Shown piece by piece: positions 609 to 62,255 of a DNA stretch of 64,000 nucleotides. The notes under the pieces were generated by a model. The model saw only the letters and a list, made by a program, of their open reading frames with translations, was not told the DNA's origin and searched no databases. The position numbers were made by a program, and so were the translations under genes. Numbering within the stretch: position 1 is the stretch's first letter; each line of letters starts with the position of its first letter. Origin of the DNA: Octopus vulgaris (lineage: Eukaryota). The stretch covers positions 77,252,001-77,316,000 of the forward strand of contig OX597831.1 in NCBI GenBank assembly GCA_951406725.2, read 5' to 3'.

Positions 609-1009
<401 letters not shown>

Positions 1010-36430: not shown

Positions 36431-36465
36431 CTTTCCGAGGAAGAGCTATGCTCGAAACGTCAAAG
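36431..36465 (+). ncRNA. Minimal hammerhead motif of family B (one core substitution)
   Basis: cuuu-CCGAGGA-a-gagc uau gcuc-GAAAC-GUC-aaag. Palindromic minimal stem III (ACGU), typical of Penelope-associated hammerheads. Confidence 0.65.
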
Positions 36466-39356: not shown

Positions 39357-42300
39357 TAGTCAAGATTGGCTGTGGGAATGCGCGTGGCTTGGGATCTCCT
39401 TGGAAACAATAGTACCTCCTAAATGACATCAAGTCACACGATTTGGGAATCATAGCCATAAGTGAGACCAGACTCCACGAGCCACGCGCCCTAAAGTCCA
39501 TGTTTGGCGGACAGTTTAAAATTTATTTTTCTCCCTGTCTGCCGAGGATGGGCGGTAGTGGCACCGCGGTACTTTTTCACAAGAGCCTGGATCTCGAAGT
39601 CAAGACGATATTCATAGACCCGGAGGGTAGACTGGTCGTCCTGGATGTCGACGGCAGCCTGGGTGCGCTTTTCGACTCGTATCAGTCTACGCACCACCTT
39701 TAACAGGTCGGCCGGATTTCTTTCGACGTCTAGAAGTATTCCTGGGAACGTCTCGTCCTTTACTTTTAGTGGGGGATTGGAATGCTACCCTGGACACGCA
39801 TCTAGACTATGTGGGGAGAGACAAAAACAGAAGGGGATGCAAATGCCTCAGAGACCTGCTCAGACGATTGCAACTGTCTGACAGGTACCGACTCGACCAC
39901 CCAAATGCACCAACGTGGACATGGAGCAACCACAGTGGGTCGTCGAGATCGTATCTAGATAGGATACTGTGTAGGACAGTAGACAGGGATAACTTAGGAT
40001 GTCCACAATTCCATACAGTCAGCTACACGGATCACAAATTCGTAACGTGTACGCTAGACTTAGATAAGGCACATAGACAGGGTCCCGGTTACTGGAAACT
40101 AAACGAATCTTTCCCGTCCAGACAGGTTTTCAGAGACAGAATCAACACGTCAGTAAAGAGGGCTTTAACGGGAGCCATCATCAACAACAAATGGTGGTTC
40201 GCCCTCAAGAGAGCAGTAAAAGCGGAAGCTATTAGATATAGCAAGGCACTAGCCGTAGATAGACATAGAGTAGAGAGTGAATTAGTTAAGAAGTTAGAAG
40301 AGGCAATAAGAAGCGGCATCACATCCGACGTTTTAGGGGCGAAGTTGGCCCTCGACCAACGAAGGGTGTGCTGTCAGGGCTAGGATGCGTGCTCTAAGGA
40401 ACGAAGGTGTTGGAGCTGCGAGAGAGGCCCGGGTGGCGGAGGCGCAGCAGGGCAACAAAGCCACAATTCGGTTTCTGGTAGATGAACAAGGGTGCGAATT
40501 GCTCGAGCCCAGCAAGATGTGCGAGGCATTTCAGCGGCACTTTGCCCGACTGTACGGGACGAGTGGCGAGCGTGAACGCAGTGTGGACTTCAGTGCCTAC
40601 CTACATAGCCTGCCATGACTCTCGGCAAGAGAGGCAGAGTGCTGCGAATGTACCATCACGGCGGCGGATGTGCAGGACGCGATGGCAGAATGCTCGAGAG
40701 ATAAATCGCCGGGTTTGGATGGTCTACCCTACGAGTTTTACAATTGTATGCCAGACTTGTTTGGAGACGTCTTGGCAGCGGTATACTGCAACTGGCAGCA
40801 AACCGGGAGCATACCCGGTTTTCTAGTCGTGGAGCCGTAACGCTGCTGAAGAAAGATCCACACAAGAGGGACATTATGGATAACTTTAGGCCCATCACTC
40901 TGCTCAATGCAGACCTGAAAATTTTGGCCAAGGTGTTAGCCAAGAGGTTGGCACTTGTCATCGAGAAACTGGTCGACAAGGCGCAAACGTGCGCCGTGAT
41001 GGCCGGAGCATCCATGACAACCTCCATCTGATGCGCTACATCATAGACAGAGTAGTTAACGAACCTGGCATGGCTGGGGCCCTGATCAATTTGGATCAAT
41101 CGAAAGCTTTCGATAGGGTAGACCATCGATACTTGGAGGCAGTCCTGAGAGCGGCTGGTTTCGGTCACATATTCTGCGGCTGGATGGCTGCCTTGTACAG
41201 AGGTATCCGTTCGGTAATTCGCGTGAATGGACATCTATCGAGACCTTTCGACATCGCACGTTCGGTCCGTCAGGGATGCCCCCTCTCGTCGCTTCTATAC
41301 GTATTGACTCTCGAGCCACTACTGCAGAAACTGGCGACTCTGAGGGGCATTGGGATGCGGGACGAGCGTGTCTGCATACGCGGACGACGTCACCGTCATA
41401 GTGTCTAGCCACGAGCACATCGAGCTGGACGGCTAGACACTGAAAGACTACGAAGCGGTGACGGGAGCGAAAATCAACTGGGAAAAGTTAGTGGGCTTGC
41501 GACTAGGCACCTGGAGAAGCAAGCCCATGCCGTCCACCAGTACCTCCGTCGTGGGACGCTAGACGGATGGCCCGGTTGAGTTGCTTGGGGTCTGGTTCGG
41601 TCCGGACCTCCAAATGAAGAACTGGAACGAGATAACGAGTAGGGTGGTCACCCTCGCCCGGCAATGGGCCTAGAGGAAACTGTCTCTAAAAGGTCGGGCG
41701 GAGGTGGCGAACACGTACATCGCGTCCATCATCTACTACCGCCTGACCGTCGTACCTTGTGTCGACCCTACCATCACCAAACTAGAACGCATTCTCTTCC
41801 GCTTCTTGTGGAAAGGATGCGTCGCGATCCATTTGCTGTCAACACCAGTTAAAAGGAGGGCTGGGTATGCCGTGGTTGATGATGCGCAGACACGCGCTGA
41901 GTCTGCGACATCTCAGGCTCTTTGTAGACGACGGTGAACAGGTGTGGTCGCCGTTTGTAAGGCACGCTTTCCCGCAGCTCGTCTCCATGACAGAACTGCA
42001 GTCGTGGATCAAAAAGAGGCCGAGGAAGAGTGAATGGCACCGCGAGTGTCGCGTTGCTCTCAAGCAACTATGCCGTCCCGGGTCGACCTTGAGTGACTTC
42101 AACACCACCCAAGCATTCTATAGGGGATTAGTGGAGGGGAGGTACGACGACGATCTTGGGGCGAACCTCGGCGTCGACGAGGAATACCTGACCCGCCTGT
42201 TCGGGACGACTTTCGGGCAGGGACCTATGGACAACTTCCAGAGATCCCTGGTCTGGCAGTGTTACCGAGAAGCGCTACCCGTTCGGGATAAGCTCTATAG

Positions 42301-42750
42301 GCATGGCTCGAGAAAAAGACGGGGCCGACCTGCCCGAGATGCGGGCAGAGCGACGAGACCGTTCTGCACGCAATCGTGCAGGGTCCAACAATCTCCGACC
42401 TGTGGGCTTATGTCGAACAACTGCTGTCACGTGTGGGACGTGTCAGTTTATCAGCCGAGTCTATCGTTAATATCGTCACGCCTCCTTCCTTCAAACTGGA
42501 AGGAAGAGCTATTTTTATCATACTTGTGGCTATGGAGAAAGAATGTATCTGGTGGATGCGCCTGAAAGGATTAGAGACAAACACTTTCCTGTCTGGTCAA
42601 TCTGTCATCAACTTCTTCAAGTATCACTTGAAGAGGAAAGTGAGAGTAGAGAGGCAAGTTTTGTCTAGCGAATGTTTTAAAAAAAGATGGATGAATGTAG
42701 CAAGGATGGCACGTATGAATGACGAAGCCACCTTGAATATGATCCTATGA
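39357..42750 (+). pseudogene. Tx1-like ORF2 (AP endonuclease, reverse transcriptase, zinc motif), frameshifted
   Basis: GNARGL, ISETRL, GRLVVLD, GDWNA, SYLDRI, TDHK, GYWKLN (APE); KSPGLDGLPYEFY, NFRPITLLNADLKILAKVLA, LDQSKAFDRVDH, VRQGCPLS, AYADDV (RT); RKLSLKGR, GGLGMP, W..YREALPV. Confidence 0.92.
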
Positions 42751-43084
42751 ACCGTAAAATTTAATACAGAGAGTTGCTTATTTGTAAAGAAATGTGACTT
42801 CATTGGCCGAGGTTACCGTGGTCTTTTCCGTAGGCTTTACTTTCCAAGCGTAAACCTCACCTGTCCTCCCCTTTACACTTTATATTGACATTTCTGTGAT
42901 AACGATCCCTATTGATCGATTTTTTCTTTTTCCTTTTATTTTTACCCCCCACCCCACCCCTGATTTTTTGCCTTCCTCTTTCTTTCCTTTTACGGTCCCT
43001 TTTGATCGAAAACCAAAAGAAAAAGGAAAGCTCTATCTTGTAATTTGTCCCGTCTGTGTGCAGCCCTGTGTGGCTAATAAAGGA

Positions 43085-43136
<52 letters not shown>

Positions 43137-44621
43137 CGGCAATGGGCCTAGAGGAAACTGTCTCTAAAAGGTCGGGCGGAGGTGGCGAACACGTACATCG
43201 CGTCCGTCATCTACTACCGCCTGACCGTCGTACCTTTGTCCCGACCCTACCATCACCAAACTACAACGCATTCTCTTCGCTTCTTGTGGAAAGGATGCGT
43301 CCCGTGGTCAGGCGATCCATTTGCTGTCAACACCCGTTAAAAGGAGGGCTGGGCATGCCGTGGTTGATGATGCGCAGACACGCGCTGAGACTGCGGCATC
43401 TCTGGCTCTATGTAGACGACGGTGAACAGGTGTGGTCGCCGTTTGTGAGGCACGCTTTCCCGCAGCTCGTCTCCATGACAGAACTGCAGTCGTGGATCAA
43501 AAAGAGGCCGAGGAAGAGTGAATGGCACCGCGAGTGTCGCGTTGCTCTCAAGCAACTATGCCGTCCCGGGTCGACCTTGAGTGACTTCAACACAACCCAA
43601 GCATTCTATAGGGGTTTAGTGGAGGGGAGGTACGACGACGAGCTCGGGGCGAACCTGGACGTCGACGAGGAGTACCTGACCCGCCTGTTCAGGACGACTT
43701 TCGGGCCAGGGCCCATGGACAACTTCCAGAGATCCCTGGCCTGGCAGTGCTACCGAGAAGCGCTACCCGTTCGGGATAAGCTCTACAGACACGGCTCGAG
43801 AAACACGGGGCCGACCTGCCCGAGATGCGGTCAGAGCGACGAAACCGTTCTGCACGCAATCGTTCAGGGTCCAACAATTTCCGACCTGTGGGCTTATGTC
43901 GAACAACTGCTGTCACGTGTGGGACGAGTCGGTTTATCAGCTGAGTCTATCGTCAATATCGTCACGCCTCCTTCCTTCAAACGGGAAGGAAGAGCTATTT
44001 TTATCATCCTTGTGGCTATGGCGAAAGAATGTATCTGGTGGACGCGTCTGAAAGGATTGGAGACAAACACTTTCCTCTCTGGTCAATCTCTCATCAACTT
44101 CTTCAAGTACCACTTGAAAAGGAAAGTGAGAGTAGAGAGGCAAGTTTTGTCTAGCGAATGTTTTAAAAAAAGATGGATGAATGTAGCAAGAATGGCACGT
44201 ATGAATGACGAAGCCACCTTGAGCATAGTCCTATGAACCAGAAATCGAAAACAGAGAGTTGCTTATTTGCAAAAAAAAAAAAAAAAAAAAAGAAATATAA
44301 AATGTGACTTCATTGACCGAGGTTACCGTGGTCTTTTCCGTAGGCTTTTCTTTCCACGGGTAAACCTCACCTGTCCTCCCCTTTACACTTCATATTGACA
44401 TTTCTGTGATAACGATCCCTATTGATCAATTTTTTTTTTCCTCTCCCCCTTTTTTTTAACCCCCCCCTGATTTTTTGTCCTCTTTCTCTCCTTTTACGAT
44501 CCCTTTTGATCGAAACTCCCCTTCCTTTTTTTTTTTTTTTTTTTTTTTTTAAACCTTCAAAAGAAAAGCTCTACCTTGTAATTTGTTCTATCTGTGTGCA
44601 GCCCTGTGTGGCTAATAAAGG

Positions 44622-49670: not shown

Positions 49671-51575
49671 TAGTTGTATTTTTATATTGTGCTTTCATTT
49701 CACTACCGAGTGCATCTCTGTGTACCTTGGGTATGTGCTGTGATTTTTTTGTGATGCTCTGATGGTTACTGTATTGAAAGTGTTCTAAGTAGGATGTGTG
49801 CAGTGCCCAGTAGTGCAATTTTCTGTATGTTATATGTGTTTGTAAGTCCTGGTGTTTTTGTTATGTATTTGTCTGAATATTTTTTATCATGCCTAATGCG
49901 CCTACTATGATAGGAATTGTTTCTGTTTTTAGATTCCATATTCGAGTTACCTCTATTTCCAGGTCTTTGTATTTTGAAAGTTTCTCCATTTCTTTTAGAG
50001 ACACGTTGTCATCTGCTGGTATTGATACATCAATTAGAAAGCATTTTTTTCTTCATGATCTCTGACAACTATATCTGGTCTGTTGGCCTTAATTTCTCTA
50101 TCTGTGTGTATTGGCATATCCCAGAGTATGGTTGCTTTCTCGTTTTCTGTGACCTTTTCTGATGTGTGTTTATACCATCTTTTTTTCTGTTGTTATTCCA
50201 TAATGTTGGCATAGCTTCCAGTGTATGTAGGTCCTAACTCTGTCGTGTCTGTGAATATATTCCTTCTTAGCCAGGACCTGGCAGCCAGAGTAAGATGATT
50301 TATTGTTTCTTGTTCATCTCCATATATTCTGCAGTTACTTGTTATATTTCTTTTCATTATATGTTTTTGGTAATTTCTGGTGGGGAGGCTTTGGTCTTGT
50401 GCTGCAATTAAAAATCCCCCTGTCTCTGCTTTGAGTCCTGAGCTTCTCAACCACTGCTGGGATGTTCTTTGTCTATTTATTTTGCATTTAGTTAGTCCAG
50501 TACTTGCCATGAAGGGGCTTTTCTTGCCATCGTTTTATCATGGTCCGTTGCTGTTCTAGTTTTAGTTTTGATTTCATTTGCTTTATAGCTTTTGTTGTGT
50601 TTTCTTCTTCTTCTTCTTCTTCTTCTTCTTCTTCTTCTTCTTCTTCTTCTTCTTCTTCTTCTTCTTCTTCTTCTTCTTCTTCTTCTTCTTCTTCTTCTTC
50701 ATATTTGTTAGGTGGTATGATTTCTTGTTTGTATTTGTCAGCTTCCTTAAATACTGAGAACAGTTTTTGTTTTGCTCGTGTTTTGCCGCTATCTGGATCA
50801 GTTTTCCTTCCTTCTGAAGTAGATATTTTTGCAGTCCTATGGTGATTATTTTATTGTAGTTTTCCAGCTGTATAAGGCCTCTACCACCTTCTATACGTTG
50901 TATATATAGCCTTTCTATGTCAGATTTTGGGTGATGCATCCTAGATCCTGTCATTATTTTTCTTGTTTTCCTATCTATTTTGGTTAGTTCATTTAGCGTC
51001 CAGTTAAGGATATTGTAGCTGTAACTTATAACTAGGACAGCTAAAGTGTTGATACCTATTATCTTGTTTTTAGCATTGAGCTCTGTTTTTAGTATTGATC
51101 TAACTCGTCTATAGTATTCTTTCTTTATTTTCTCTTTCATTTGTGTGTGTTGTGTCTTATTTAGTTCATGGATTCCTAAATATTTGTAAGTTTGGCTTTG
51201 GTCTAATTCTCTTATTTCATTGGCTTTATCAAGTCTGATGTTGCTACTCTTAACTAGTTTTCCTCTTTTCAGGGTTACTTTGGCGCATTTTTCTAATCCA
51301 AATTTTATATCTATTTCTTTGGTGAATCCATGAACTGTCTTTAGTAGTGCTTCCAGCTGTTTGTCATTTGTAGCGTATAGTTTTAGGTCATCCATATATA
51401 AAAGGTCGCTGATCGTTTTGCCGTAACATTTATATCCGCATCCAGTTCTATTTAGCATATCAGATAGAAGTGACAGTGCCAAGCAGAAAAGGAGTGGAGA
51501 GAGCGTGTCTCCCTGGAATATTCCTCTTCTAATGGGGATGGCTTTGGTTTTCACGAGTCATGGTGATGGCTTTGG

Positions 51576-52649: not shown

Positions 52650-52896
52650 GATTGACCGACGAACAGGAACGTGAAACCCTAACAGTTTTTGTGATGCTTT
52701 TGCAGCTTTATCAATAATGTGTGTGTGTGCCTATGTATATATATATATATATACAAAATTGGACAAGAACGCAAAACATCCAGAGGACAAGGTGATACAA
52801 ATAGGGACAACAAAACATCTGGATAGACGATACCAATAAAACACGGATGGGTCATTCGAAGCCTTTAATCTTCAGTCAAGAACCAGATCATTCTCG

Positions 52897-53249: not shown

Positions 53250-53600
53250 AACATAAAAGAGATACCCGAGGAATAGGATATCTGACTCGCTAGAAAGAGC
53301 AGTTAAAAACTCCAAGCCACCAATTGTTATAATTCCGAAAGTGATTGAAAAATAAAAAACCTTGCAGGGTCTAGGATTAAGGTAAACGTTTTTATTTTTC
53401 AATCACTTTCGGAATTACAACAATTTGTGGCTTGGAGTTTTTAACTGCTCTTTCTAGCGAGTCAGATATCCTATTCTTCGGATATCTCTTTTATGTTTGA
53501 ATGTACACTATTATTCTCTGAATAATATATAGTATATTGACTAATTTTTTCTCGTTAGTCCATTGGTAACTAAGAATTTTTCGATAAAGTTTTTAATTAT
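53248..53600. mobile_element. Foldback element (about 112-bp arms 53248-53360 / 53388-53499 plus tail) between (TA)n tracts
   Basis: CAAACATAAAAGAGATA...AAAATAAAAAAC is inverted as GTTTTTATTTT...TATCTCTTTTATGTTTG with few mismatches. Confidence 0.8.
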
Positions 53601-56160: not shown

Positions 56161-56231
56161 CTTTTTACATTATTTACATTATTTACATTATTTACATTTG
56201 CCGGATATTTGTCCTCATCTTGTTTGTTGTT

Positions 56232-56277
56232 AACACAACGTTTCAGCTGATATACTCTCCAGCCTTCATCAGGTGTC
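56232..56277 (-). ncRNA. Type-I hammerhead ribozyme, intact core
   Basis: gacac-CUGAUGA-a-ggcug gagaguauau cagcu-GAAAC-GUU-guguu. Confidence 0.82.
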
Positions 56278-56326
56278 TTGGGGTAATTTCGAACCTGGGT
56301 TCTCATTCCTAAGGTACTTTTTCGAA

Positions 56327-56464
<138 letters not shown>

Positions 56465-56470
56465 ATTATA

Positions 56471-56536
<66 letters not shown>

Positions 56537-56540
56537 ATTA

Positions 56541-56607
<67 letters not shown>

Positions 56608-56609
56608 CA

Positions 56610-56662
<53 letters not shown>

Positions 56663-56693
56663 ATTATTATTATTATTAGTATTATTATAATTA

Positions 56694-56783
<90 letters not shown>

Positions 56784-56911
56784 TATTCAGGTCACTGCAT
56801 GGAATCGAAATCGGAACCACTGCGATATGCCCACGGGCATGTGGCATTAGTGGTTAAAAGCGCGGGCTACTTACCTCAAGATTCCGAGTTCGATTCGAGA
56901 CAGTAACCTGA

Positions 56912-56968
<57 letters not shown>

Positions 56969-57022
56969 GTAACAGCGAAAAAAAACCTTAGGAATGAGAA
57001 CCCAGGTTTGAAATTCCCCCAA

Positions 57023-57068
57023 GACTCCTGATGAAGGCTGGAGGGTATATCAGCTGAAACGTTGTGTT
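57023..57068 (+). ncRNA. Type-I hammerhead ribozyme, intact core
   Basis: gacuc-CUGAUGA-a-ggcug gaggguauau cagcu-GAAAC-GUU-guguu, with one stem I mismatch. Confidence 0.8.
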
Positions 57069-57869
57069 AACACCATCAAGATGAGGACAAATATCCATCA
57101 AATGTAAATAATGTAAATAATGTACTTAATTCCTCATATCTTAAATATAGAACTGTATTATAAGTCTTTTTATTCCGATAGTTTCATCATTGATTTATTT
57201 TCCTATGGTCTACGATATTCAGTCATTGAAACTTTCTATCAGCTGACAACTTTTCTAATTTGCAGGCCTCTTGTTTTCATCCTTTGTACACCCTTACGCA
57301 ATATAGCGTCAAACCATTCTTAGGGACGAAATCGTCAAAACAAAAGCAAAAAAATCAAAAACAAAACAAGAAAAAGAGGGGAAAGGAATACCTACCTTAC
57401 CTCTGACGCCACCACTAAAAGCTGTTTCGCTCCTTATTTGAGTTACTTCCATTAATGTGACACAAAACGTAGGTAGGAACTTACTTTTGTACTAATACAT
57501 AGAAACCATTTAATAGATTATGGTACTGAAACACATTATTTGACCAGGTTTTTCTGAATTTGCAGGCCTCTTCTTTTAGCTCTTTGTAGACTAAACAATT
57601 CAAACCTACAGATATAACGGACACAGACCCAGGGAAAAACAAAAACGCACAAACTACACATATATGGCATCAACCAATGACACTCTATTTATACAATGTA
57701 TGAAACGGCCATAAAACATCAAAGAACAGAATATATATATACATATATAATGTGTATGTATATATACAATACATATACACCTAGATATACATATACACAC
57801 ATATGTATATATATATATATACATATACACACATATGTATATATATATATATATACATATATTTATGTA

Positions 57870-58886: not shown

Positions 58887-58892
<6 letters not shown>

Positions 58893-59047
58893 AGAATGGA
58901 GGAATAGATTCCTTTCAATCATCAACTTCCAGATAATACCAATTCATATAATTTATTAACTAATTATTTATATTAATAAATTATATGAATTGGTATTATC
59001 TGGAAGTTGATGATTGAAAGAAATCTATTCCTCCATTTTCTTATTTT
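58887..59047. repeat. Foldback (about 73-bp arms 58887-58959 / 58973-59047) starting at (TA)n
   Basis: ATGGAGGAATAGATT...AATTTATTAA is inverted as TTAATAAATT...AATCTATTCCTCCAT. Confidence 0.85.
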
Positions 59048-59272
59048 GTATTATGAATTTGAGGTAAAACATTTTACCTTCGCCCATATAATACAATGAA
59101 TTAAATAATTGCATTCCAATTCTTAGCATTTATGTATTAGCCTTCTGGGTACTTTACTGACAGTATATTGGATAAATGATATTCCATAGTGGGTTACACA
59201 CATAACCCTGTGTGTACCGTTGGCAAATTTTTTCCCTCTGTCTTCCCTTCTCTGGATCTTTCCTTCTCCTAT

Positions 59273-59307
59273 GTTTCCGACGAAGAGCTCCGCTCGAAAA
59301 GTTAAAC
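59273..59307 (+). ncRNA. Minimal hammerhead motif of family B (degenerate)
   Basis: guuu-CCGACGA-a-gagc ucc gcuc-GAAAA-GUU-aaac. Confidence 0.55.
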
Positions 59308-59404
59308 TCTCCTTCTTTCCTTCTTTCCTGAGCGTCCAATAATACTATATTTGTTCCACGTCCTCGCGTTGTTGCGTTTTTTTGTGCTTTCTTGTTTGGA
59401 TTAA

Positions 59405-59453
<49 letters not shown>

Positions 59454-59636
59454 ATAAATATTAGGGAATAAATCCAAATTTACAGGGAAAAATCAGATTT
59501 AGGGTTGAATCCAATTTTATAGTAAAATATAATATAATATTAATTAGAGACAAAACCACTATTATGCAAATCAAACAAAGAAAGACTTAATCCAATACAT
59601 AAAAATTTTTATATAAATTAAATATAATTAAGATAT

Positions 59637-59682
59637 CCACTACGATCGTTTCTTGACACTTCTATTGACATTCATCAGGTGG
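59637..59682 (-). ncRNA. Type-I hammerhead ribozyme, intact core
   Basis: ccac-CUGAUGA-a-uguc aauagaagu guca-a-GAAAC-gauc-GUA-gugg. Confidence 0.8.
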
Positions 59683-59717
59683 TTTCAAGACCTTCTTTGC
59701 CAGTTTTAAACTTGAAA

Positions 59718-59763
59718 CCACCTGATGAATGTCAATAGAAGTGACAAGAAACGATCGTAGTGT
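59718..59763 (+). ncRNA. Type-I hammerhead ribozyme, intact core
   Basis: ccac-CUGAUGA-a-uguc aauagaagu gaca-a-GAAAC-gauc-GUA-gug(u), with palindromic stem III ACGAUCGU. Confidence 0.82.
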
Positions 59764-59856
59764 ATATCTTAATTATATTTAATTTATATAAAAATGTTTA
59801 TGTATTGGATTAAGTCTTTCTTTGTTTGATTTGCATAATAGTGGTTTTGTCTGTAA

Positions 59857-59927
<71 letters not shown>

Positions 59928-61815: not shown

Positions 61816-62255
61816 AGATCTTTTCAGTTTGAACGGCAGTTTTTAACATAATTTCTAGGTAACTAAAAAATTTTAAACTTCGTATACTGGTAGAATGTGT
61901 TTATAAAACATCATTTTCTCTTGGCTTTATTGAGAAAATTCTATAGTTTGTAAGATATTTGTTTTTTTCTTCAATTTCTGCAATTTCAACCAATCACTGA
62001 CGTCCATTGAGGTAAACAACATTCTATGCCGTATGAATATGTCCCTCGTTTAAGAAGCAGATTGGGTTTATTTACATTTGTGAAGAAAAAATGATACCCT
62101 TCCCCCACCCCTAACCCTAACCCTAACTAACCCTACCCCTAACCCTGACCCTAAAATAGATTGAAATGCAATAGATCGATACTAGGGTCATAATTATGGG
62201 CGACAATTTCATATGACACCTCTAGAAAAAACTGCCGTTCAAACCGAAAAGATCC
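61816..62255. mobile_element. MITE with 28-bp TIRs, probably Mutator-like, containing (CCCTAA)n
   Basis: TIRs GATCTTTTCAGTTTGAACGGCAGTTTTT / AAAAACTGCCGTTCAAACCGAAAAGATC. Flanks TAGAATTTC / TAGAATGCA suggest a degenerate ~9-bp TSD. Confidence 0.75.

What the first reader, a model, noticed from the sequence alone, without database searches (positions are those of the whole stretch)
59451..59868. 158-bp foldback with a canonical hammerhead on each strand
Seen: near-perfect arms around a 21-nt spacer, each containing ccac-CUGAUGA...GAAACGAUCGUA-gug. An ~80-bp unique extension lies on one side and (TA)n on both. A transcript from either direction carries a ribozyme and its full antisense, so hairpin formation would compete with ribozyme folding. 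Inference: a young PLE inverted-pLTR insertion and a possible dsRNA, ADAR or siRNA substrate.
Basis: partly seen in the sequence, partly recalled or inferred. Interest (0 to 1): 0.7.

Follow-up and report, generated by a model that had tools for sequence, protein, structure and literature searches.

The report
Spliced, twin-armed Penelope retrotransposon stub
This DNA hairpin is one of many mirror-image stubs of a Penelope-type jumping gene, and its middle carries a precise intron-removal joint, which indicates that such stubs are copied from spliced RNA and suggests that both halves were likely copied from one RNA molecule primed from both strands of the target.

Summary
The foldback is real (158-bp arms, 4 mismatches, a type I hammerhead on each strand). 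It is not a one-off. It is a short head-to-head insertion of a Hydra-clade Penelope-like element (PLE). The genome holds 1,785 exact arm matches and copies with 820-860-aa open RT + GIY-YIG frames. The '21-nt spacer' is mostly the end of a ~27-nt first exon, joined to the hammerhead exon across a removed 1.1-kb GT-AG intron. Spliced arms outnumber unspliced ones (76 + 4 against 24), although PLEs are described as intron-retaining. Inversions pair one short end with one long (tailed) end (45 of 45 compact cases). The two arms share their splice form (14 of 14 pairs), and either arm can reach further 5'. Best model (inferred): twin priming on one sense RNA. Each hammerhead here has one broken helix pair and is predicted to be locked by its antisense, so cleavage of read-through RNA is unlikely. 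ADAR and siRNA activity were not tested. The inverted-pLTR-plus-tail layout is known, and this scan already noted the short/long rule on other DNA. I found the splice evidence in no paper or scan note I saw.

The parts
59407..59450 (.). (TA)n target tract, long-end side
   Evidence: the same flank type in most of 30 loci
59451..59531 (-). 81-nt 'tail': sequence between the short (S) end and the long (L) end; in full-length elements it continues into the ORF leader
59532..59691 (-). Long arm, exon-2 part (hammerhead exon); begins at the first base after the 3' splice site
   Evidence: long arm plus tail match exon 2 of unspliced copy L042 with 4 substitutions and 1 gap over 242 nt
59637..59682 (-). 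Type I hammerhead, helix I 4/4, helix II 3/4, helix III 2 bp with GAUC loop; predicted cut after 59641
59692..59712 (-). 3' end of exon 1 (21-nt exact match to the bases before the GTACGT donor in L042), spliced to exon 2 at 59692/59691; the last 2 nt (59711-59712) are a microhomology shared with the short arm
59711..59868 (+). Short arm: exon 2 from its third base to the S end
59718..59763 (+). Type I hammerhead, helix I 3/4, helix II 4/4, helix III 2 bp with GAUC loop; predicted cut after 59759
59864..59922 (.). (TA)n target tract, short-end side

Best explanation
The 418-bp unit is a head-to-head, 5'-truncated insertion of a Hydra-clade Penelope-like retrotransposon whose long arm carries an exact exon 1-exon 2 splice joint, and it was most likely made by twin priming on one spliced sense RNA. 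Shown: family membership; intact RT+GIY-YIG partners; a 1,116-1,117-nt GT-AG intron just upstream of the hammerhead; its precise absence here; two fixed 3' ends about 76-81 nt apart (S and L). Inferred: the element's protein nicks both strands of a (TA)n tract; one strand primes reverse transcription at S and the other at L on the same RNA; the L-primed copy usually displaces the S-primed copy; and the two cDNA ends are joined by short microhomology (2 nt here). The stub is probably inert: read-through RNA is predicted to form a ~158-bp duplex that would lock both ribozymes. I put identity at about 0.93 and the twin-priming step at about 0.6.
For: Family: 1,785 exact matches to a 26-mer of the arm, control 0. 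Partner L061 has an inverted short arm + pLTR + ORF + pLTR with tail + (TA)n; at least a dozen copies have 820-864-aa open frames. Hydra motifs were found. Splicing: three different upstream sequences meet the same base 9 nt before hammerhead helix I: an acceptor ending TTTTAG; an exon whose genomic copy is followed by GTACGT (L042, L062) or GTAAGT (L114/L115, a second subfamily with matching spliced copies such as L195 and L177); and a 3'-UTR donor followed by GTAAGT. Exact genome-wide counts in one subfamily: 76 exon-1-spliced, 24 unspliced and 4 UTR-donor-spliced arms. The same joint stands in contigs of 4 of 4 runs guessed to be RNA. Geometry: among the first 100 exact hits there are 35 head-to-head pairs, 0 tail-to-tail and 0 same-strand within 6 kb. 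45 of 62 sites examined are compact inversions, all with one S and one L end (43 by script, 2 mis-parsed rows corrected by eye). One template: 14 of 14 head-to-head pairs in the exact lists share their splice form (counted by eye; about 6e-4 under independent draws), and arms differ by 2.1% within copies against 5.7-6.8% between copies. Two primings: the short arm reaches further 5' in 18 and the long arm in 13 of 45 (14 equal). In L101/L102 the 6.2-kb S arm, which holds the whole ORF, begins at the first base after the L site, beside a 3.6-kb L arm. In L195 the L arm is little more than the tail. In vitro, a Poseidon PLE cuts and extends both strands, starts internally at two adjacent sites that delimit the tail, and is predicted to be a dimer (PMC11167929).
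Against: No intermediate or activity was observed; all mechanism steps are read from insertion shapes. L021 has arms of two different subfamilies, which needs two templates or later conversion. At least one true short/short pair exists (L149). Splice-form concordance could also arise if source loci yield only one form and both RNAs come from one locus. Unequal 5' extents could come from later deletions in an unstable palindrome. In vitro, the two DNA strands did not differ in RT start site, so the strict S/L pairing is not yet explained by the published assay. The joint can come from transcribed spliced retrocopies, and those runs are only guessed to be RNA. The C1 sample includes two likely local duplicates (L200/L201; L114-115/L116-117).
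Confidence: 0.68

Rival explanations
1. Fold-back of one cDNA. Reverse transcription starts at L on spliced sense RNA, the cDNA end snaps back and copies itself as far as the TA-like S site, and later one-sided deletions at the centre make the arms unequal.
For: It explains the shared splice form, the shared subfamily and the private changes found in both arms of 7 copies. Near-perfect centres where both arms reach the exon-1 start and central microhomologies also fit.
Against: It predicts that the short arm never reaches further 5' than the long arm. It does so in 18 of 45 (13 of 45 by more than 15 nt) and by about 2.6 kb in L101/L102, starting exactly after the L site. S-ended arms that carry the whole ORF exist (L086, L094, L096, L102), so S behaves as a priming site.
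Confidence: 0.17
2. Two RNAs, one per target strand. A protein dimer brings two RNA molecules, usually from the same source locus, and each is copied onto one strand.
For: The chimeric pair L021; independent 5' truncation of the arms; both strands are extended in vitro.
Against: There are 0 mixed splice forms in 14 exact pairs and in 32 informative pairs of a partly biased set, although an unspliced source locus should yield both forms. It gives no reason why an S arm should start exactly after an L site (L101) or why S/S and L/L pairs are almost absent.
Confidence: 0.1
3. Self-priming on an antisense transcript, the model proposed for PLE head-to-head palindromes and intron retention (PMC3846280, passage read).
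For: It accounts for head-to-head polarity and for the 24 intron-retaining arms.
Against: An antisense RNA cannot lose a sense-strand GT-AG intron, yet this copy and 76 + 4 arms did. It would need spliced retrocopies to act as antisense-transcribed masters. Their varied centres and the exon-1 extent capped at about 27-36 nt argue for fresh copying from the mRNA 5' end.
Confidence: 0.03
4. The 418-bp palindrome moves as a unit (MITE- or SINE-like master), or is an assembly artefact.
For: 34 of 40 best matches share both outer ends.
Against: That set was selected by similarity. Unselected copies have inversion points all along the arms, centres differ in nearly every copy, both arms change together by subfamily, and family joints stand in independent runs.
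Confidence: 0.02

Closest known systems
Hydra clade of EN+ Penelope-like elements (Craig et al. 2021, PMC8557442; passages, section 11 and supplement passages read), including Hydra-1_Obim and Penelope-13_HM
   Same: RT + C-terminal GIY-YIG with DKT, CxCX5C, CxxC and CxH and no CCHH; (TA)n target; type I hammerhead near the end; an inverted 5'-truncated copy with a second, antisense hammerhead (listed for Penelope-13_HM); tail at one end.
   Different: A different family from Hydra-1_Obim (different hammerhead; protein collinear by eye only). KWK stands for RWK; there is an Asn-rich insert; the unspliced unit is about 6 kb rather than under 3 kb; the tail is about 80 nt rather than 30-40. It has two donors and one acceptor, and spliced genomic copies are the majority. 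No Hydra intron is mentioned in the passages I read.
Penelope of Drosophila virilis (PMC2377424, passages; PMC4209133, parts 1-2 of 4)
   Same: Short first exon after an internal start site, then an intron whose 3' end lies next to hammerhead helix I; partial tandems and inverted repeats; small palindromic helix III.
   Different: The intron is 75 nt there and 1.1 kb here. Penelope is described as retaining its intron in transposition, whereas here 80 of 104 exactly matched arms lack one.
Dual PLE hammerheads 100-700 bp apart on opposite strands in Schistosoma mansoni (Cervera and de la Pena 2014, PMC4209133)
   Different: Mentioned there in one sentence, without end rules, splice forms or mechanism.
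Poseidon element of Anolis in vitro (Frangieh et al. 2024, PMC11167929, parts 1-2 of 4)
   Same: Two internal RT start sites delimiting the tail; both DNA strands cut and extended; AT-rich targets; ribozyme dispensable for insertion and protein-assisted.
   Different: That work does not explain inverted copies; the genomic S/L pairing and shared splice form here add that link.
LINE-1 twin priming
   Same: Two target strands prime on one RNA and give a 5' inversion; L101/L102 and L195 have the abutting geometry.
   Different: In most copies here the two cDNAs overlap in sequence, giving palindromes, and priming is at two fixed internal sites rather than at poly(A) and a variable site.

Membership tests
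Hydra-clade EN+ PLE (partner) | Single ORF with RT and C-terminal GIY-YIG | tested here: met
   837-aa ORF with YRDD and VY..YIG. Atlas look-alikes at 0.95-0.98 carry HTH_animal (31-38% of members in the top clusters), GIY-YIG and RVT_1. A Pfam scan of the 695-aa fragment gave no RT or EN family.
Hydra-clade EN+ PLE (partner) | DKT motif; CxCX5C linker; CxxC and CxH around the EN E/N; no CCHH | tested here: met
   the absence of CCHH was read by eye from the translation
Hydra-clade EN+ PLE (partner) | RWK motif | tested here: inconclusive
   KWK at the same place in the 3 long ORFs printed; context collinear with Hydra proteins by eye
Hydra-clade EN+ PLE (partner) | Placement in the RT phylogeny | not tested
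   Reference proteins were seen only as text in the paper's supplement
Hydra-clade EN+ PLE (partner) | Generally short (<3 kb) | tested here: inconclusive
   The UTR-donor-spliced unit is 2,979 bp; the unspliced unit is about 6.0 kb. The paper says 'generally', so this is not treated as exclusive.
EN+ PLE insertion architecture | Inverted 5'-truncated copy, tail at one end, (TA)n target | tested here: met
EN+ PLE insertion architecture | Target-site duplication | not testable with these tools
   Hidden in (TA)n; no empty allele was available
EN+ PLE insertion architecture | Intron retention (typical trait, not defining) | tested here: not met
   This copy and 80 of 104 exact arms are spliced; 24 retain the intron
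Type I hammerhead ribozyme of PLEs | CUGANGA / GAAA core, NUH triplet, three helices, palindromic loop 3 | tested here: met
   Loop 3 switches GAUC to AAUU between subfamilies (both self-complementary), while loop 2 varies in length. The 165 arms were picked by a pattern that needs near-consensus helix I, so its conservation is partly built in.
Type I hammerhead ribozyme of PLEs | Self-cleavage | not testable with these tools
   Bench assay needed; the monomer fold is predicted unstable (-0.4 and +0.2 kcal/mol)
Non-LTR retrozyme | Head-to-tail tandem units, each with a hammerhead | tested here: not met
   0 same-strand neighbours within 6 kb among 100 hits
MITE / foldback DNA transposon | Fixed unit with symmetric terminal inverted repeats | tested here: not met
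   Ends are asymmetric, centres vary, and the unit contains a splice joint

The most novel reading that the evidence does not exclude
Splice joints in this family act as built-in lineage marks. They show that Penelope-like elements copy spliced sense mRNA, so intron retention is a matter of selection rather than mechanism, and that the long-unexplained head-to-head repeat with a one-sided tail is a twin-priming product: a protein dimer primes one RNA at two fixed internal sites from both strands of a (TA)n target.
Probability: 0.55. Interest if true: 0.72.

Novelty: new member of a known kind. Interest (0 to 1): 0.52.

Why it matters
How PLEs make their inverted repeats and tails, and why they keep introns, is called unresolved in the papers read (PMC8557442, PMC3846280, PMC11167929). 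One published model invokes an antisense template. This family has intact-looking ORFs, two fixed priming sites and three splice forms, so it offers a natural marking experiment in the genome and a direct in vitro test. The locus itself is probably inert. As a class, hundreds of near-perfect hairpins could be a source of dsRNA in this animal, but that is untested.

Tried and rejected
Rfam at gathering scores found nothing in the window. Single-arm folding does not give the hammerhead. Pfam on the 695-aa fragment gave only a spurious sub-threshold hit. A pattern for the exon-1 donor assuming GTRAG found 0; this subfamily's donor is GTACGT. An early idea that the centre ends at a 3' splice site or branch point was dropped once the centre proved to be exon 1 and the true acceptor was found. 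The consensus fold had wrong coordinates for 3 of 10 rows and was discarded. Sequencing runs: no RNA holder listed on record, and only contigs were available, so editing, small RNAs, strand and expression level could not be read. No listed contig bridged this locus's centre, which proves nothing. Whether the locus lies in a host intron was not determined. Literature searches found no report of spliced PLE genomic copies or of twin priming by PLEs. The library lacks most subscription papers; Arkhipova et al. 2003 and Evgen'ev and Arkhipova 2005 were seen only in reference lists, Repbase and Dfam were not searched, and the supplements of bioRxiv 10.64898/2026.07.22.740005 could not be seen. A look-up of earlier scan findings by this sequence found nothing. 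No structure or complex prediction was run.

Full report
Observation. The inverted repeat is as described: arms 59532-59689 and 59711-59868, 21 nt apart, with 4 mismatches, far beyond shuffles (56 against at most 18 nt). There is an 81-nt extension on the left and (TA)n on both sides. Each arm holds a type I hammerhead pointing outwards from the centre: helix I CCAC/GUGG, core CUGAUGA, one unpaired A, helix II UGUC/GACA, GAAA, a 2-bp helix III around GAUC, and a GUA cut triplet. The + arm has lost a helix I pair and the - arm a helix II pair. The monomer fold is predicted unstable (-0.4 and +0.2 kcal/mol), while the ACGAUCGU segment self-pairs between two copies (-12 kcal/mol). In the full 418-nt transcript of either strand the sense core is fully paired and the antisense copy comes first. 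Rfam finds nothing. Cervera and de la Pena describe such short-helix-III motifs as dimer-dependent, found a single minimal PLE motif inactive, and mention opposite-strand pairs 100-700 bp apart (PMC4209133, parts 1-2 of 4).

It is a family. The genome is 2.8 Gb in 227 contigs; that it is octopus-like is my inference from recalled repeats and size, not a tool result. A DNA search gave 1,990 candidates, and 34 of the 40 scored span the whole unit. A conserved 26-mer occurs 1,785 times exactly, control 0. In 29 distinct close copies the arms differ by 2.1% within a copy and 5.7-6.8% between copies, and subfamily changes appear in both arms, including loop 3 GAUC to AAUU (one duplicate locus was dropped). 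Centres differ from copy to copy, and in unselected copies the inversion point lies anywhere along the arms. Each palindrome was therefore made at its own insertion.

The partner. Following widely spaced hammerhead hits led to L061: inverted short arm, pLTR, ORF, pLTR with tail, (TA)n. A protein search found many copies, at least a dozen with open frames of 820-864 aa. The 837-aa protein of L077 has KWK, DKT, YRDD, CTCRDKSNC, VY..YIG, CYLC and CRH. This matches the Hydra clade as defined in PMC8557442 (section 11) except for K in place of R in RWK, and it is collinear by eye with Hydra proteins in that paper's supplement. It is not Hydra-1_Obim, whose hammerhead differs. Pfam did not recognise the fragment tested; Atlas look-alikes carry PLE-type domains. 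No tree was built.

The spacer is an exon. Three different sequences meet the same base 9 nt upstream of helix I. One ends in a pyrimidine-rich TTTTAG. One is a 3'-UTR segment that in long copies is followed by GTAAGT. The third is the sequence at the centre of the window's palindrome, which in L042 and L062 is followed by GTACGT and an intron of 1,117 and 1,116 nt. The window matches L042 exactly for 21 nt before the donor, and at 4 substitutions plus 1 gap over 242 nt after the acceptor. A second subfamily shows the same arrangement with its own exon variant and a GTAAGT donor. Among 68 spliced arms the match to exon 1 is most often 27 nt and never more than 36, starting in TTACTTC, which fits the initiator consensus as I recall it; the start site is inferred. 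Exact counts in the window's subfamily are 76 exon-1-spliced, 24 unspliced and 4 UTR-donor-spliced arms (the first pattern misses some exon-1 variants). The joint is present in contigs of four runs guessed to be RNA, but retrocopies could supply it. The layout parallels Drosophila Penelope, whose 75-bp intron lies 46 bp after the start (PMC2377424, passages) and ends at hammerhead helix I. PLEs, however, are described as retaining introns, and self-priming on an antisense template was proposed to explain both that and the head-to-head palindromes (PMC3846280, passage). Spliced palindromes cannot come directly from antisense RNA of an unspliced source.

Insertion rules. The first 100 exact hits give 35 head-to-head pairs and no tail-to-tail or same-strand pair within 6 kb. 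Of those 65 sites I examined 62, as 64 loci. Of these, 45 are compact inversions and all pair one short end with one long end (two rows were mis-parsed and corrected by eye; two likely local duplicates remain in the sample). Across all fetched loci with both hammerhead halves, 62 of 65 pairs are short/long. Of the other three, one is cut by a locus edge, one is truly short/short and one is unresolved, and one of the 62 spans two neighbouring insertions. In the complete exact lists 14 of 14 pairs share their splice form (10, 3 and 1; about 6e-4 if drawn independently). The short arm reaches further 5' in 18, the long arm in 13, and 14 are equal. In L101/L102 a 6.2-kb short-ended arm holding the ORF starts at the first base after the long-end site, next to a 3.6-kb long-ended arm. 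In L195 the long arm is little more than the tail. Against a single template: L021 has arms of two subfamilies.

Mechanism. A Poseidon PLE protein cuts and extends both strands of AT-rich DNA, starts reverse transcription at two adjacent internal sites that delimit the tail, is predicted to be a dimer, and does not need ribozyme cleavage (PMC11167929, parts 1-2 of 4). Putting this with the rules above, I infer twin priming on one sense RNA. One target strand primes at S and the other at L; the L-primed copy stops at S or, more often, displaces the first copy; and the two cDNA ends join by microhomology. Here the RNA was the spliced leader. The long arm ran to within about 6 nt of the inferred start, the short arm stopped 2 nt inside exon 2, and they joined through 2 shared bases. 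Fold-back with later deletion (0.17) and two RNAs from one locus (0.10) remain open.

Function of the locus. It is probably inert debris of average age for its family. Transcription, editing and small RNAs could not be tested, and none of the four arm differences is A-to-G against the family majority.

Novelty. The architecture and clade are known. Earlier notes of this scan, seen after my counts, already report the short/long end rule in this genome and a both-strand copying idea in a shark; they are unchecked AI notes, not support. The bioRxiv retrozyme paper (10.64898/2026.07.22.740005; part 1 of 5 and passages) does not treat inverted copies. Verdict: a new family of a known kind whose insertions make an open mechanistic question testable; interest 0.52.

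Noticed in passing
window 59227-59406: End of a different, extremely abundant repeat (summed contig depth about 10^6) with hammerhead-like words CCGACGA...GAAA; it shares the (TA)n tract with the finding. A similar motif lies at 36435-36458.
   Followed up: no
window 58890-59040 (exact core 58912-59020): Another foldback next to (TA)n, with about 60-70-bp arms and a 13-nt centre; no hammerhead core was seen.
   Followed up: no
window 56203-57096: Head-to-head arms of another hammerhead-bearing family (cores at 56272 - and 57028 +) around a long (ATT)n tract and a SINE-like piece.
   Followed up: no
window 53250-53500: Foldback with arms of about 100 bp beside (TA)n and a 30-nt centre.
   Followed up: no
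window 678-779 and 52656-52677: Small foldback with a CCGAUGA...GAAAC core on the - strand (726-705), and a related-looking core at 52656.
   Followed up: no
L147 (=L068), L142 (=L048), L205 centres: Short templated repeats of the RNA's 5'-end bases at the junction (e.g. repeated AAATTT units), suggesting template jumps or slippage at the cDNA ends.
   Followed up: no
L061 (G000:C10:100768700-100772400): A whole element spliced from the 3'-UTR donor, so the unit is 2,979 bp and lacks the inferred promoter, exon 1 and both introns; its ORF has one frameshift.
   Followed up: partly
L097/L098, L101/L102, L093/L094: Giant inverted insertions of the family with arms of 3.6 to more than 8 kb.
   Followed up: partly
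P0001 about residues 355-450; P0002 about 500-600: Asparagine-rich insert after the RT core, recalling the N-rich inserts of Adineta vaga Penelope ORFs (PMC3846280).
   Followed up: no
L021: The two arms belong to different subfamilies (several diagnostic bases), the only clear case among 65 pairs.
   Followed up: partly
window 39631-44236 and 50193-51557: Broken LINE-type reverse transcriptase frames.
   Followed up: no
window 62103-62154: Short run of CCCTAA-like repeats.
   Followed up: no
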